IMG/VR virus record: IMGVR_UViG_3300027734_000299
Span: 1-24,741 of that record
From: a virus
Taxonomy: Duplodnaviria > Caudoviricetes
Length of the DNA: 24,741 nucleotides
Reading direction: 5' to 3' (one strand)
The notes beneath the pieces were generated by a model, which worked only from the letters and a program-made list of their open reading frames with translations, did no database searches and was not told where the DNA came from. The position numbers were made by a program, and so were the translations under genes. Within the stretch, counting starts at the first letter, position 1, and each line of letters begins with the position of its first letter. Below are positions 9,653 through 23,269 of the stretch, one piece after another.

Positions 9653-9933
9653 TGGTTCAAGCAGCACCACTTAAACATAGCTTTACTTATGATGGAGCAC
9701 AGTTAAATGTAATTCATGCCAATAAGGGGGAAGGTTTACCTAAGCATTCTCACTCTTATAGTCATGCTACTATTTGCCACAACGGCTCTTGCGTTATAAG
9801 AATGGAAGGCAAAGAAAAGATTATTAATAAACACAGTGGTGCTTTTAATTTACCAGCTGGTGAGTGGCATGAGATTGAAGCATTGGAAGACGATACTGTA
9901 TTTGTAAACGTATTCTCAGAGGGTAAGTACTAA
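9652..9933 (+). CDS. Cupin domain protein
   Basis: GEGLPKHSHSYSHATICHNGS and LPAGEWHEIEALEDDTVF cupin motifs 1 and 2. Confidence 0.8.
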   Translation: MVQAAPLKHSFTYDGAQLNVIHANKGEGLPKHSHSYSHATICHNGSCVIRMEGKEKIINKHSGAFNLPAGEWHEIEALEDDTVFVNVFSEGKY

Positions 9934-10298
9934 TGGATCCAATAACAATCCTATCAGCTTTTGCTCCAGTAGTAATGGACTTAGGTAAGTCCCTTATTAA
10001 CAAGTTTGTAGCTCCAGATCAATTTAAACCTGCAACTATCGAGCAGTATGCTCAGATGAAGAACATAGACTTAGAGTTCTTTAAGGTTATGAATGATGCT
10101 GGGGCAGGTAATTCTTCATACCTTTGGGTAGAAGCCATCGTTAGATTAATGAGGCCTCTAATAGGCCTTCTTGTGCTTTCTACATGGGTATATATGCATG
10201 TAACTGGTATAGGAACTCCTGAGGTAGATAACTTTGCTAGTGCTGTAGGTTTCTACTTATTTGGTGAGAGAAGCTTATTTTATATTAAAAAGAAATGA
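9933..10298 (+). CDS. Putative holin (GTA-type 3TM holin-like)
   Basis: N-terminal amphipathic helix, W...RP followed by a TM segment, C-terminal GFYLFGERS and basic tail. Confidence 0.6.
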   Translation: MDPITILSAFAPVVMDLGKSLINKFVAPDQFKPATIEQYAQMKNIDLEFFKVMNDAGAGNSSYLWVEAIVRLMRPLIGLLVLSTWVYMHVTGIGTPEVDNFASAVGFYLFGERSLFYIKKK

Positions 10299-10633
10299 AT
10301 CTTATAACAGTTGAGTCGTGCAAGGCAGTTTACAGAATGTTACGTGAACTCCCACCCTTCAACAAGTATGAGTTACCTAGACCTTCAGAGATAGAATTTT
10401 TAGTAGTAGATGATCCTGCAATGTATGGGCAGTATCAACCTGAACCTCATTGTATTACAATTAGTTCAGCTAAGATGAGTCAACTACAGACCCTTGAGAA
10501 AACAATGGCACATGAAATGGTGCATCTTATTTTATACCTTCAGGGTAAAAGATATGAACTACATAACAAAAACTTCTATAACTTAACATATCAAATAGCC
10601 GCTATCTATGGCTGGGAACCTAAGGATTTATAA
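10295..10633 (+). CDS. SprT-like zinc metallopeptidase
   Basis: TMAHEMVHL (HExxH) plus downstream HNKNF third-ligand motif. Confidence 0.75.
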   Translation: MNLITVESCKAVYRMLRELPPFNKYELPRPSEIEFLVVDDPAMYGQYQPEPHCITISSAKMSQLQTLEKTMAHEMVHLILYLQGKRYELHNKNFYNLTYQIAAIYGWEPKDL

Positions 10634-10812
10634 TGGAACATTTACAAGAGTCAACTAAACACATAATAGACACAGCATCAATAGCTACTGCAGTAGGAAC
10701 CATGATGCAAGTATTGCCAGCAATTGCTGCTTTATTTACAATTATTTGGACTTTAATTCGTATTTACGAAACTAAGACAGTACAGAAACTATTAGGTAAA
10801 CATAAAGGATAA
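10633..10812 (+). CDS. 59-aa holin-like membrane protein (not in ORF track)
   Basis: TAATG coupling, AAGGA SD. MEHLQESTKHIIDTASIATAVGTMMQVLPAIAALFTIIWTLIRIYETKTVQKLLGKHKG has a hydrophobic core and basic C-terminus. Confidence 0.7.
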   Translation: MEHLQESTKHIIDTASIATAVGTMMQVLPAIAALFTIIWTLIRIYETKTVQKLLGKHKG

Positions 10813-20663: not shown

Positions 20664-21059
20664 ATGGAAATGAAGCTTAAACGATTTGAATTTGGTAAAA
20701 CATTTACTATTGGTAAATTATATATAGATGGTATATATCAATGTTTTGTGTTAGAAGATGTTATAAGACCTAAAGGAGAGAAAGTAGATGGACAAACAGC
20801 TATACCTAGCGGCACTTATTCTGTTATTATTGATCGTTCTACCAGGTTTAATAAAGATATGCCTCACATCCTAGATGTGCCTAACTTTACTGGTGTTAGA
20901 ATTCATTCAGGTAACTCTTCTAAAAATACAGAAGGGTGTTTATTAGTAGGTACTACTTGGTCAAGTGGTGATTTTATTGGTAACTCTAAGTTAGCTTATG
21001 ATGCTTTATTTAAAAAGCTAGTAGCTACTAATGAAAAGATTACAATTACAATAGAATAA
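20664..21059 (+). CDS. DUF5675-family putative endolysin (His/Cys L,D-transpeptidase-like motif)
   Basis: TIGKLYIDG..CFVLED, TAIPSGTY, GVRIHSGN...TEGCLLVG. Confidence 0.75.
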   Translation: MEMKLKRFEFGKTFTIGKLYIDGIYQCFVLEDVIRPKGEKVDGQTAIPSGTYSVIIDRSTRFNKDMPHILDVPNFTGVRIHSGNSSKNTEGCLLVGTTWSSGDFIGNSKLAYDALFKKLVATNEKITITIE

Positions 21060-21088
21060 AAAAGGGGCCGAAGCCCCTAATATTATTT
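21055..21088 (-). terminator. Intrinsic terminator between convergent operons (possibly bidirectional)
   Basis: Minus strand reads AGGGGC-TTCG-GCCCCT-TTTTATT: cUUCGg tetraloop plus U tract. Confidence 0.9.
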
Positions 21089-21235
21089 AGCGTCCTTTAA
21101 GAAAGCCGCAACTTCATCCCAGTCTTTAAAGATCAAGACTTCGTTAAGCTGTGTCTTTGTTAAAATATCAATCTTAGTACCATTTAAAACATAACCATTG
21201 TTTACTTTGGTAATTTGAACGTTATCAAATTTCAT
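21083..21235 (-). CDS. 50-aa hypothetical protein (not in ORF track)
   Basis: AAGGAG 5 nt upstream; MKFDNVQITKVNNGYVLNGTKIDILTKTQLNEVLIFKDWDEVAAFLKDAK. Confidence 0.75.
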   Translation of the reverse strand: MKFDNVQITKVNNGYVLNGTKIDILTKTQLNEVLIFKDWDEVAAFLKDAK

Positions 21236-21245
21236 ACTATCTCCT

Positions 21246-21383
21246 TTAAAAATTAACTACAACTCTAACTAAAAATAAATCAATCACTAGGTAAATATCT
21301 TCATTCTTAGGATCTACATCTTTACCGCTTACAAGTTCTATTCCAAAAGTACAACCTTGTATTAAATGAAATGTAGCATCCAT
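21246..21383 (-). CDS. 45-aa hypothetical protein (not in ORF track)
   Basis: TAATG coupling with the nrdJ stop, AGGAG SD; MDATFHLIQGCTFGIELVSGKDVDPKNEDIYLVIDLFLVRVVVNF. Confidence 0.65.
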   Translation of the reverse strand: MDATFHLIQGCTFGIELVSGKDVDPKNEDIYLVIDLFLVRVVVNF

Positions 21384-23269
21384 TATTGCACTCCTACAAT
21401 CTCACAAGCACCCGCAGTACAACTAAGCTCTTGGGTGCCTGTGGTTGTATCTTCTTCCTCTTTTAAGTTACCCCAATCAATCAATGGGAAACTTGCTACA
21501 AAGGCATCATACTCTTCCTTTGTTATTTCTTGATAAGGTGCTTGTTTATACACGTGATCGGAGTGCGGCAGAAGCGATACTCCTGATACATCACTGAAAT
21601 TATTGTATATCCAATCGCCTATCGTCAAGAACTCGTTATCTTTATAGTATACAGTAATAGATGGATTATGTTCTGTCCAGTTCTTTTGATATACACTATA
21701 AAGTTTTAATTGTTCAATTGCATTTGTTTCATTTCTAGTAACACCAGACTCCGTTCCTTTTTGAGGGAAACTAAATATAGTAATGTCACTAGGTTTAGTT
21801 ACATCAGGTTCATTAGGAACACCTTGTGTTTTAAAGAATAACGTTAACGGATCTTTGTTATCCATACGTACAGTCCTAATATAATATTGACTATATGCAG
21901 GATGAATCCCACTAGAACAACCCACCAACTGACTGACTGTACCACTTGGCTTAACAGTAGTGATAGCAGCAGACACAGGAATACCGAGTCGTTCAGCCCA
22001 CTCTTTATTGATCTTAATCGCATGTTCTCTTAGTTCTGTTAACCATTTAACTGTCTCCTCAGTAGGTTTACTAAGTACAGGATGGTCCATAATACCCGTC
22101 ATGCTTACACCAAGTAAACGTTCTTCTTCTTGATTACGTTTCCAATCACTTCTTAAGTATCTAAAGTTTGTAAGGGTGGATTGAAATGTCCCGATAATTG
22201 TTGCGACCCTAACTTTTTCTTTAAGGTCAGCAAGGGTATCGTTCTCTCTGATGACAACTTCACTGAGATTACAAAGCCCTTTAGATCGCAGGATAATTTC
22301 TCCGCAAGGGTTTGTACCGTACTCAAAGCCATCAACATCTCGTCTTCCGTTAGAGCTTGCTTTTTTTGTAGCTGCAACTCTATTAAATAATCCTCTTTCT
22401 CCACTCTTTGATTCATATAATGTTGTCCATTCCTTTAAGAAAATACCTACATCAGGTTTCTCAGTATAGGCTACAGAGTTATTGGCAAGTGCACGTTGCA
22501 CATCAGATTCCCACCAGGCTCCGTTCTTTGCGTTTCGCATCCTATCGTCGGTGAGGTTTGACAAGCTGATAAGAGCTGACCTACGCACACCGCCAACAAT
22601 AACAATATCAGCAACTTTACATACGATGTCATGGCATTCTAAGCTGTTAAGCTTTCTCCCCGCTGCTTTCTTAAAAGTATGAACCGTAAATTGGAACAGG
22701 TCCTCGAGAGGCTTAGGGCCAGATGCTCGGCCTCCAAAAGTTTTAAGCCTAGCTCCTGCAGGTCTGATTCCTGAAGTGTCCCACTTTGGCACTCGTCCTG
22801 AATAGAGTAAGCTAATGAGTTCGCGGTACGCACTAGCCCAGCCAATTCTTGAATCTTTGACTCTAATTGTTGTATCAGTTTCATGGAACTCCTCTGCAAT
22901 AGTAGGTAGGTTATTAGTAAACTGACGTTCTACACTAAAGCCTACGCCAGTACCACACATTAAAACATACATTACTTCATCAAATGCTTTAGGGGAATCA
23001 ATAGCAATGAAGCTACAATTGTAACCTGCTATTTCATCACGTTCTAATGCAGCACCCGCTGACATTAAACATCTCATACTAGGCATTACATTAAGATCAT
23101 GTATTGCTTTATTTACTTCTTGATCTGGAAAAGTATCTGGAAAACGATTCTTAAAAAAGCTAGTGTATCTGTTTACAGTTTCTTCCCATGTTTCTCTACG
23201 GCTTTCATCAGGCATCCATCTTGCATAACGGCTTGCGTGAATAAAACGTTGATAGTCTGTTAATTGCAT
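21383..23269 (-). CDS. nrdJ: Class II adenosylcobalamin-dependent ribonucleotide reductase (monomeric RTPR-like)
   Basis: RETWEETVNR, PSMR, YNC, GTGVGFS, GGVRRSA, GTNPCGEI, CNLSE, TTVKPSGTVSQL, C-terminal CTAGAC redox pair; no small-subunit gene nearby. Confidence 0.93.
   Translation of the reverse strand: MQLTDYQRFIHASRYARWMPDESRRETWEETVNRYTSFFKNRFPDTFPDQEVNKAIHDLNVMPSMRCLMSAGAALERDEIAGYNCSFIAIDSPKAFDEVMYVLMCGTGVGFSVERQFTNNLPTIAEEFHETDTTIRVKDSRIGWASAYRELISLLYSGRVPKWDTSGIRPAGARLKTFGGRASGPKPLEDLFQFTVHTFKKAAGRKLNSLECHDIVCKVADIVIVGGVRRSALISLSNLTDDRMRNAKNGAWWESDVQRALANNSVAYTEKPDVGIFLKEWTTLYESKSGERGLFNRVAATKKASSNGRRDVDGFEYGTNPCGEIILRSKGLCNLSEVVIRENDTLADLKEKVRVATIIGTFQSTLTNFRYLRSDWKRNQEEERLLGVSMTGIMDHPVLSKPTEETVKWLTELREHAIKINKEWAERLGIPVSAAITTVKPSGTVSQLVGCSSGIHPAYSQYYIRTVRMDNKDPLTLFFKTQGVPNEPDVTKPSDITIFSFPQKGTESGVTRNETNAIEQLKLYSVYQKNWTEHNPSITVYYKDNEFLTIGDWIYNNFSDVSGVSLLPHSDHVYKQAPYQEITKEEYDAFVASFPLIDWGNLKEEEDTTTGTQELSCTAGACEIVGVQ
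21844..22023 (-). CDS. Candidate nested +1-frame ORF D in nrdJ, 59-aa two-TM protein
   Basis: MRLRSIKSGLNDSVFLCLLLSLLLSQVVQSVSWWVVLVGFILHIVNIILGLYVWITKIR; weak SD (AAGAG). Confidence 0.3.
   Translation of the reverse strand: MRLRSIKSGLNDSVFLCLLLSLLLSQVVQSVSWWVVLVGFILHIVNIILGLYVWITKIR
22153..22416 (-). CDS. Candidate nested +1-frame ORF C in nrdJ, 87 aa
   Basis: Track ORF on the same strand as nrdJ, in a stretch of atypical nrdJ codons. Confidence 0.3.
   Translation of the reverse strand: MNQRVEKEDYLIELQLQKKQALTEDEMLMALSTVQTLAEKLSCDLKGFVISVKLSSERTIPLLTLKKKLGSQQLSGHFNPPLQTLDT
22471..22632 (-). CDS. Candidate nested +1-frame ORF B in nrdJ, 53-aa lipoprotein
   Basis: MTSYVKLLILLLLAVCVGQLLSA-CQTSPTIGCETQRTEPGGNLMCNVHLPITL with lipobox LSAC; ATG is 6 nt after the stop of ORF A. 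Confidence 0.45.
   Translation of the reverse strand: MTSYVKLLILLLLAVCVGQLLSACQTSPTIGCETQRTEPGGNLMCNVHLPITL
22639..22884 (-). CDS. Candidate nested +1-frame ORF A in nrdJ, 81-aa coiled-coil protein
   Basis: GAGGAG-TTCC-ATG start (same 4-nt spacing as the exonuclease gene SD); MKLIQQLESKIQELAGLV... Confidence 0.45.
   Translation of the reverse strand: MKLIQQLESKIQELAGLVRTANSLAYSIQDECQSGTLQESDLQELGLKLLEAEHLALSLSRTCSNLRFILLRKQRGESLTA

What the first reader, a model, noticed from the sequence alone, without database searches (positions are those of the whole stretch)
22471..22632. Nested lipoprotein with canonical lipobox read through the RNR GGVRRSALISLS motif
Seen: MTSYVK-LLILLLLAVCVGQL-LSA-C has a basic n-region, hydrophobic h-region and LSAC lipobox. 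The mature 30-mer has two more Cys, three Pro, and Gln at +2. The lipobox depends on nrdJ using ATC AGC TTG for Ile-Ser-Leu, all non-preferred codons here. Established: nested +1-frame lipoprotein genes exist (lambda Rz1 within Rz), and non-Asp at +2 favours outer-membrane sorting in E. coli. No Rz/Rz1 pair is visible in this window's lysis genes. Inference: an o-spanin-like or Cor/Llp-like exclusion lipoprotein. Caveat: the Leu run arises naturally from T-ending codons read in +1.
Basis: partly seen in the sequence, partly recalled or inferred. Interest (0 to 1): 0.8.

Follow-up and report, generated by a model that had tools for sequence, protein, structure and literature searches.

The report
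Hidden lipoprotein gene inside ribonucleotide reductase
A small gene for a predicted outer-membrane lipoprotein is written in a second reading frame inside a freshwater phage's ribonucleotide reductase gene, is intact in all 27 close relatives examined, is one of four hidden frames kept open in that gene, and likely helps breach the host's outer membrane in phages where no ordinary spanin genes were found.

Summary
The ORF is real: minus strand 22632-22471, +1 frame of a class II nrdJ. Start, lipobox, two further cysteines and an uncharged h-region are kept in 27 of 27 close relatives. Random synonymous recoding gave start+open frame+lipobox in 0 of 200,000 trials; nrdJ-silent changes over the signal and lipobox run at 0.29 of background in this clade and 1.15 in the sister group where the ORF has mostly decayed. 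The distal mature part is barely constrained (0.91). It is one of four +1-frame ORFs (A, B, C, D) covering about 45% of nrdJ; A, C and D stay open down to about 60% NrdJ identity, and no other of 25 gene families shows this. Function is untested. No i-spanin partner or Rz/Rz1 was found in four near-complete close genomes, while many relatives with broken B carry Rz/Rz1; one has both, several have neither. Best guess: a partner-less outer-membrane disruptor working like colicin lysis proteins (0.35); rival: Llp/Cor-type exclusion (0.28). No homologue or paper found. The scan noted analogous nested ORFs in terminase genes of other phages, not this one.

The parts
21383..23269 (-). Host gene: nrdJ, monomeric class II (B12-dependent) ribonucleotide reductase, 628 aa
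   Evidence: phrog_367 E 4e-185; PF21995 and PF02867; 59-60% identical to annotated cobalamin-dependent RNRs of isolates
22471..22632 (-). ORF B (the finding): 53-aa predicted outer-membrane lipoprotein in the +1 frame of nrdJ codons 213-266
   Evidence: Intact in 27 of 27 close relatives; silent-site constraint 0.53 of background over the ORF
22561..22632 (-). Signal peptide and lipobox of B; lipid-acceptor Cys24 at 22563-22561
   Evidence: Constraint 0.29 of background over codons 213-241, 0.41 at codons where no stop is possible; no Asp/Glu/Lys/Arg in residues 7-23 in 27 of 27
22641..22654 (-). 5-bp hairpin 8 nt before B's ATG, between a purine-rich stretch and the start; candidate aid to B initiation (weak, about -3.5 kcal/mol)
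   Evidence: 5 of 5 pairs in 27 of 27 close relatives, compensated in L027, 1-2 pairs in the 11 sister sequences L021-L026, L028-L030, L196, L201
22639..22884 (-). ORF A: 81-aa +1-frame ORF, predicted helical hairpin without a transmembrane segment; stop 6 nt before B's ATG
   Evidence: Open in 105 of 130 nrdJ sequences; AlphaFold2 pLDDT 93, two helices; silent-site constraint 0.71 near, 0.57 mid, 0.96 far
22889..22894 (-). Shine-Dalgarno-like GAGGAG before ORF A
   Evidence: Glu126 uses GAG in 24 of 24 near and 12 of 14 mid sequences against 189 of 785 background Glu codons
22153..22416 (-). ORF C: 87-aa +1-frame ORF, predicted helical, soluble
   Evidence: Open with ATG in 41 of 41 near+mid sequences, open in 104 of 130 overall; constraint 0.42 near, 0.38 mid, 0.72 far; model pLDDT 64
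21844..22023 (-). ORF D: 59-aa +1-frame hydrophobic ORF (up to two predicted membrane segments); weakest of the four
   Evidence: Open in 99 of 123, 35 of 40 near+mid; no silent-site constraint in the near clade (1.07), some in mid (0.67) and far (0.84)

Best explanation
ORF B is a gene overprinted in the +1 frame of nrdJ and kept intact across one phage clade; it is predicted to encode a small lipoprotein that is likely made from the nrdJ message right after ORF A, would be anchored in the outer membrane, and most likely weakens that membrane without a partner, as colicin lysis proteins do, in phages where no Rz/Rz1 spanins were found. Shown: the ORF, its conservation, selection on signal and lipobox, the absence of detectable Rz/Rz1 in close genomes. 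Inferred: translation (coupling to A's stop 6 nt upstream, perhaps helped by a small hairpin), lipidation, outer-membrane sorting (Gln at +2, E. coli rule, recalled), and the lytic role. I put 'real, translated lipoprotein gene' at about 0.88 and this particular mechanism at 0.35.
For: Gene: 27 of 27 close relatives keep ATG, lipobox, Cys32, Cys45, no stop, no charge in the h-region; A-ending Leu/Ile/Val codons are 0 of 230 where they would make a +1 stop (background 508 of 911) but 26 of 92 where they would not (background 206 of 471); constraint is clade-specific, near versus mid Fisher p 7e-7; no unusual RNA fold, z -0.1 to 1.6 for the three stretches covering B and its start. [quoted passage not shown]
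Against: L027 carries both an intact B and Rz/Rz1. Nine mid sequences (L021-L026, L030, L196) and complete genomes G006, G011, G012 have neither an intact B nor detectable Rz/Rz1, so B is not the family's only way round spanins. The B-without-Rz pattern is essentially one evolutionary event. No Pfam colicin-lysis match at E up to 1 in 0 of 19 members. No translation, lipidation or lysis data. That colicin lysis proteins depend mainly on signal peptide and first mature residues is recalled; one search found no paper holding all five terms. B has no canonical Shine-Dalgarno at normal spacing.
Confidence: 0.35

Rival explanations
1. B is a superinfection-exclusion lipoprotein working like T5 Llp or Cor: made with the replication genes, it binds the phage's outer-membrane receptor from the periplasm and blocks adsorption.
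For: Two conserved extra Cys could form an intrachain bond; T5 Llp has a C11-C58 disulfide (10.64898/2026.03.26.714494, passages) and B's second Cys is mature residue 9. Marginal hits to the Cor family phrog_1119 in 5 of 19 members (best E 0.015) and to EexN entry-exclusion lipoproteins in 8 of 19 (best E 0.049). It needs no i-spanin and is compatible with L027 having both B and Rz/Rz1, and with relatives that have neither.
Against: Mature B is 30 aa, Llp about 62. The distal mature part, which would contact a receptor, shows no overall constraint (0.91). Hits are marginal, and Rz-like phrog_456 is hit more often (10 of 19).
Confidence: 0.28
2. B is a true o-spanin whose i-spanin partner is undetected (for example ORF A, ORF D or a gene missed by my scans).
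For: Size, Cys content and +1 nesting resemble Rz1 (PMC6139136); the family's own Rz1 often has its second Cys about eight or nine residues after the lipid Cys, as B does; phrog_456 hit in 10 of 19 members, best E 0.022; A is a two-helix hairpin directly upstream.
Against: A has no N-terminal membrane anchor and the frame upstream of its ATG is closed by stops; D is broken in 5 of 40 near+mid sequences, among them L013, L014 and L076 with intact B; no i-spanin-like ORF in G001-G004; a profile of mature Rz1 does not find B; hhalign matches only 19 columns; B lacks the Pro-rich tract of the family's Rz1.
Confidence: 0.1
3. B is not a functional protein: the segment is conserved for a nucleotide-level reason (RNA signal, recent sweep or recombination) and the lipobox is a by-product of the RNR motif.
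For: The Leu run and Cys32 are forced or favoured by the NrdJ sequence; a hydrophobic +1 stretch appears in distant relatives; the distal mature part is unconstrained; close relatives are not independent samples.
Against: Sites inside the segment do vary but avoid stops and charges: Gly226 uses three codons and never GGA in 27 sequences (GGA is 154 of 489 background Gly codons), and rare GTG (Cys45) and GCC (Pro50) are fixed 27 of 27 well outside the signal; no RNA structure signal; 0 of 200,000 recodings reproduce it.
Confidence: 0.12
4. B is a real lipoprotein with another envelope role, for instance acting with A, C and D in host takeover or modulating a transporter such as one for vitamin B12.
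For: B sits in a row of four nested ORFs; A and C are intact in every B carrier examined; NrdJ needs B12.
Against: A, C and D are far more widespread than B, so they do not need it; no homologue or fold match gives any lead; the B12 link is speculation.
Confidence: 0.15

Closest known systems
Lambda Rz1 and other embedded o-spanins (Kongari et al. 2018, PMC6139136, passages read)
   Same: Small lipoprotein gene wholly nested in the +1 frame of another gene; extra periplasmic Cys.
   Different: Nested in an enzyme gene, not in its i-spanin; no i-spanin found; no Pro-rich tract; no similarity to the family's own mature Rz1.
Colicin lysis proteins / bacteriocin release proteins (PMC9517006, passages; size and signal-peptide role recalled)
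   Same: Small partner-less lipoprotein; B's constraint is concentrated on signal, lipobox and first mature residues.
   Different: No sequence match in Pfam; phage-borne and overprinted; two extra Cys; activity untested.
T5 Llp and Cor exclusion lipoproteins (10.64898/2026.03.26.714494, passages)
   Same: Small phage lipoprotein with two extra Cys; marginal phrog_1119 hits.
   Different: Mature part half as long; free-standing genes there, overprinted here; receptor unknown.
T7 nested genes 4.1/4.2 and 19.2/19.3 (recalled; one search found no paper)
   Same: Several short out-of-frame ORFs inside one large conserved phage gene.
   Different: Here four ORFs in one frame of a ribonucleotide reductase, one a lipoprotein; no sequence comparison was made.
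phiKT gp28 disruptin (10.1101/515445, passages)
   Same: Precedent for outer-membrane disruption in a spanin-less phage by one small protein.
   Different: gp28 is a cationic peptide from a phage with no lipoprotein gene; B is a predicted lipoprotein with a near-neutral mature part.

Membership tests
Overprinted (nested) protein-coding gene | Alternative frame kept open beyond chance in relatives | tested here: met
   27 of 27; 0 of 230 stop-making codons; open in 17 of 200,000 recodings
Overprinted (nested) protein-coding gene | Reduced host-silent substitution | tested here: met
   0.29 over signal and lipobox, 0.91 over the distal mature part, 1.15 in the sister group
Overprinted (nested) protein-coding gene | Translated product | not testable with these tools
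   Only assembled contigs of RNA libraries were available
Bacterial lipoprotein (Sec/SPII) | Basic n-region, uncharged h-region, lipobox with invariant Cys | tested here: met
   Motif rule; 27 of 27; SignalP not available
Bacterial lipoprotein (Sec/SPII) | Lipidation and outer-membrane location | not testable with these tools
   Gln at +2 predicts outer membrane by the recalled E. coli rule only
o-spanin (two-component spanin) | Cognate i-spanin with N-terminal membrane anchor in the genome | tested here: not met
   None in G001-G004 by rule-based scan and family profile; a divergent one could be missed
o-spanin (two-component spanin) | Similarity of the mature part to known o-spanins | tested here: inconclusive
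   phrog_456 10 of 19 at E 0.022 or worse; mature Rz1 profile no hit
u-spanin | Lipoprotein signal plus C-terminal membrane segment in one chain | tested here: not met
   B ends after 53-61 aa with no second membrane segment
Cor/Llp exclusion lipoproteins | About 60-residue mature beta-rich domain with disulfide | tested here: not met
   Mature B is 30-38 aa against about 62 for Llp; B was not folded
Cor/Llp exclusion lipoproteins | Blocks the phage receptor | not testable with these tools
   No host or isolate
Colicin lysis protein / bacteriocin release protein | Sequence similarity to the family | tested here: not met
   0 of 19 members match such a Pfam model at E up to 1
Colicin lysis protein / bacteriocin release protein | Permeabilises the outer membrane without a partner | not testable with these tools
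   Needs expression tests

The most novel reading that the evidence does not exclude
The ribonucleotide reductase gene of this widespread phage family hides a second, four-gene operon in its +1 frame, and one lineage has turned the reading of a conserved RNR motif into a newly born lipoprotein that replaces Rz/Rz1: a partner-less lipoprotein class of outer-membrane lysis protein, invisible to gene callers, that could account for some 'spanin-less' phages.
Probability: 0.25. Interest if true: 0.88.

Novelty: new variant of a known kind. Interest (0 to 1): 0.7.

Why it matters
It is a well-controlled case of de novo gene birth by overprinting on one of the most conserved enzymes, with living intermediates (closed, open but non-lipoprotein, intact) in sister lineages. 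Up to 45% of this nrdJ is double-coded, which gene callers miss and which distorts silent-site and codon analyses of a common phage marker gene. If B disrupts the outer membrane it offers a directly testable answer, with the existing lambda Rz/Rz1 complementation assay, to how some spanin-less phages lyse Gram-negative cells; if it excludes superinfection it is the smallest such lipoprotein I know of.

Tried and rejected
Homologue searches: B none (none by tblastn in 50,697 phage records); profiles of C and A returned 3 and 4 proteins that look like the same nested ORFs called on short contigs. ESM Atlas hits for B and A all scored under 0.9; B's were small lipoprotein clusters, a lead only. 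Fold searches with the A model gave nothing. PDB sequence search with the B profile: one chance hit. The exhaustive HMMER search of 1.84 billion representatives could not be run, so distant free-standing relatives of B remain possible. RNA structure as cause of conservation: z-scores not significant. Internal sigma-70 promoter: 12 sites against 14.3 expected. RNA libraries X1 and X2 hold contigs across B, which shows neither transcription level nor translation; 4 of 21 runs were laid. Other frames: +2 and the three reverse frames show no comparable closure-free zones, though the codon-aligned reverse frame is also somewhat depleted in C and D. General codon-bias artefact: rejected because only stop-making A-ending codons vanish and only nrdJ shows shared runs. 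A as i-spanin and B-C-D as a read-through u-spanin: rejected (no anchor; many stops between ORFs). Host: the genome scan gave only phage-like contigs in unrelated assemblies; no host identified. No complex prediction was run.

Full report
Observation. The window is a fragment of a tailed phage with a structural arm on the plus strand and the end of a replication arm on the minus strand. The last large gene of that arm is a 628-aa monomeric class II ribonucleotide reductase, nrdJ, 23269-21383 (phrog_367, E 4e-185). The described features are there: one Lys, a hydrophobic run, a Leu-Ser-Ala-Cys lipobox, a 30-residue mature part with two more Cys, three Pro and Gln at +2. The codon adaptation of nrdJ drops from about 0.7 to 0.34-0.45 over codons 130-250 and 300-345, wider than B alone, and the +1 frame holds three more long ORFs: A (22884-22639), C (22416-22153) and D (22023-21844).

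Relatives. A scan of viral contigs gave 79 loci, 71 distinct nrdJ sequences with the window: 23 'near' (at least 90% identical), 10 'mid' (85-87%) and 38 'far' (61-69%). B was open in 23 of 23, 3 of 10 and 10 of 38; A in 21 of 21, 10 of 10, 35 of 37; C in 23 of 23, 10 of 10, 36 of 38; D in 19 of 23, 10 of 10, 17 of 36 (sequences not covering a region left out). Further scans added 56 distinct sequences. In the enlarged near set 27 of 27 keep the ATG, the lipobox with Gln, Cys32, Cys45, an open frame and no charged residue at positions 7-23. On a tree of 130 of the 135 sequences (5 fragments dropped), A is open in 105, B's zone in 57, C in 104, and D in 99 of 123. The intact lipoprotein form is confined to the near clade plus L027. 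B's zone is also open, as a hydrophobic ORF mostly without a lipobox at this place, in a 20-sequence far subclade and in a 7-sequence group of more distant phages; whether those are genes was not tested. Two Streptomyces phage nrdJ genes have 5 and 4 stops in zone A, and three roseobacter-group phages 2 each.

Is it chance? Four tests say no. (1) In the near set, A-ending Leu/Ile/Val codons occur 0 of 230 times in B where they would make a +1 stop (background 508 of 911), but 26 of 92 times where they would not (background 206 of 471); A and C give 0 of 172 and 0 of 317. (2) Random synonymous recoding with nrdJ's own background usage gave start, open frame and lipobox together in 0 of 200,000 trials. 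(3) On a tree of 20 of the 23 near sequences, changes silent in NrdJ but not in the +1 frame run at 0.29 of background over codons 213-241 (lower than all 228 background windows), 0.91 over 242-264, 0.42 in C, 0.71 in A, 1.07 in D; in the mid set, where B has mostly decayed, B gives 1.15 while A and C give 0.57 and 0.38. The constraint persists at codons where no stop is possible (0.41 for B's signal, 0.48 for C, 0.88 for A in near). These p-values assume one tree and independent changes and are rough. (4) Genome-wide control: among 25 gene families aligned across up to 11 near-complete relatives, only nrdJ has +1 stop-free runs shared by all members, at A, C and D; the 11 most depleted of 597 windows are all in nrdJ. 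RNA structure does not explain B. Variable sites avoid charge: Gly226 uses three codons, never the one giving Glu in B (0 of 27; background 154 of 489), and rare GTG and GCC codons giving Cys45 and Pro50 are fixed. Against this, the Leu run and Cys32 are largely dictated by NrdJ, and the distal mature part is not constrained overall.

Expression, inferred. A has a Shine-Dalgarno-like GAGG motif built from a non-preferred Glu codon (24 of 24 near, 12 of 14 mid; background 189 of 785) and an ATG in 36 of 38. A's stop lies 6 nt before B's ATG (15 nt in L002 and L027). B has no ribosome-binding motif at normal spacing, but a 5-bp hairpin sits between a purine-rich stretch and the start; it is complete in 27 of 27 near sequences, compensated in L027, and absent in 11 mid sequences without intact B. 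It is weak and one compensated case is thin evidence. RNA-library contigs cover the region but show nothing about translation.

Function. No homologue of B was found; marginal family hits are all lipoproteins: Rz-like phrog_456 in 10 of 19, Cor phrog_1119 in 5 of 19, EexN in 8 of 19. Context is more informative. Relatives carry ordinary embedded Rz/Rz1 pairs, which implies Gram-negative hosts: directly upstream of nrdJ in L027, L028, L029, L198, L200 and L201, or at the end of the structural arm in L047, L050-L052, L059, L061, L070, L080, L213 and, more weakly, L123 and L040 (the profiles were built from 7 and 11 of these, so they test absence elsewhere). No near-clade locus and none of G001-G004 (94-100% complete) has them. 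B is broken or lacks its lipobox in all those Rz/Rz1 carriers except L027. Against a simple replacement: L027 has both, and nine mid sequences plus complete G006, G011 and G012 have neither; G010 and G013 have an open B zone and no Rz/Rz1. A true o-spanin is unlikely since no i-spanin was found, A lacks an anchor, and B resembles the family's Rz1 only around the signal. A partner-less outer-membrane disruptor like the colicin lysis proteins fits the size, the missing partner, and selection concentrated on signal and lipobox (0.35); an Llp/Cor-type receptor blocker fits the extra cysteines and the exceptions (0.28). Neither is shown. A folds as a confident helical hairpin, C poorly; neither has a structural or sequence match.

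Comparison with what is known. Nested lipoprotein genes are known as Rz1 in Rz (PMC6139136, passages); disruptin as a spanin substitute (10.1101/515445, passages); Llp structure (10.64898/2026.03.26.714494, passages); colicin lysis proteins (PMC9517006, passages); cobaviruses, which share this RNR type, have free-standing one-chain spanins (PMC6775973, passages). T7's nested genes are recalled. Searches (listings only) showed no paper on ORFs nested in phage nrdJ; the library lacks most subscription papers and no supplements were read, so annotation tables could hold such ORFs. The scan's notes hold nothing on this genome or feature but describe lipoprotein-like ORFs nested in terminase genes of other phages (not checked). 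The closest isolate by capsid is an Alcaligenes phage (55%) that has a two-subunit RNR instead; the host here is unknown.

Verdict. Observation confirmed; a real overprinted lipoprotein gene is likely (about 0.88), within a larger undescribed four-ORF overprint of nrdJ. It is not shown to be a member of the o-spanin, Cor/Llp or colicin-lysis families. New variant of a known kind; interest 0.7.

Noticed in passing
window 22884-22639, 22416-22153, 22023-21844 (minus): Three further +1-frame ORFs in nrdJ (A, C, D), more widely conserved than the finding itself; C shows the strongest selection across all three groups. They deserve study on their own.
   Followed up: yes
L027 3332-3856 and 3585-3755; L028, L029, L198, L200, L201: An embedded Rz/Rz1 pair sits in the replication arm just upstream of nrdJ, far from the endolysin; in other relatives a related pair ends the structural arm, and close relatives lack it, so it behaves as a mobile accessory.
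   Followed up: partly
G002:C1:28357-29595 (helicase codons about 161-240), 26930-27838 and 26127-26843 (polymerase genes), 41019-43094 (portal): Weaker shared +1-frame ORFs in other genes of relatives, the helicase one open in 8 of 10 genomes over codons 161-210.
   Followed up: partly
window 21157-21664: RNA-library contigs from two runs over the nrdJ 3' end and the 45-aa ORF have depth 45 and 43 against 2.5-7 for other pieces, near a codon-adaptation dip at nrdJ codons 540-570; possibly an internal promoter, but contig depth cannot rank genes.
   Followed up: no
L239, L240, L254, L257, L259, L260, L262; L063, L064, L067, L069, L044, L071, L077 and kin: Distant phages keep the same zone as B open, some while closing C and D, suggesting repeated co-option of this hydrophobic shadow frame.
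   Followed up: partly
L020 2213-2464 (+); L114 11308-11541 (-): Free-standing small lipoprotein-like genes of unknown function in single relatives.
   Followed up: partly
L081 971-3602 (Rhizobium phage RHph_N3_13): nrdJ annotated in two pieces around an inserted gene.
   Followed up: no
window 21063-21078: Bidirectional terminator-like hairpin between the converging arms.
   Followed up: no
window 9933-10298, 10633-10812 and 20664-21059: Two small membrane-protein genes (holin candidates, no family hit) and a DUF5675 gene at the end of the structural arm where relatives have various endolysins.
   Followed up: no
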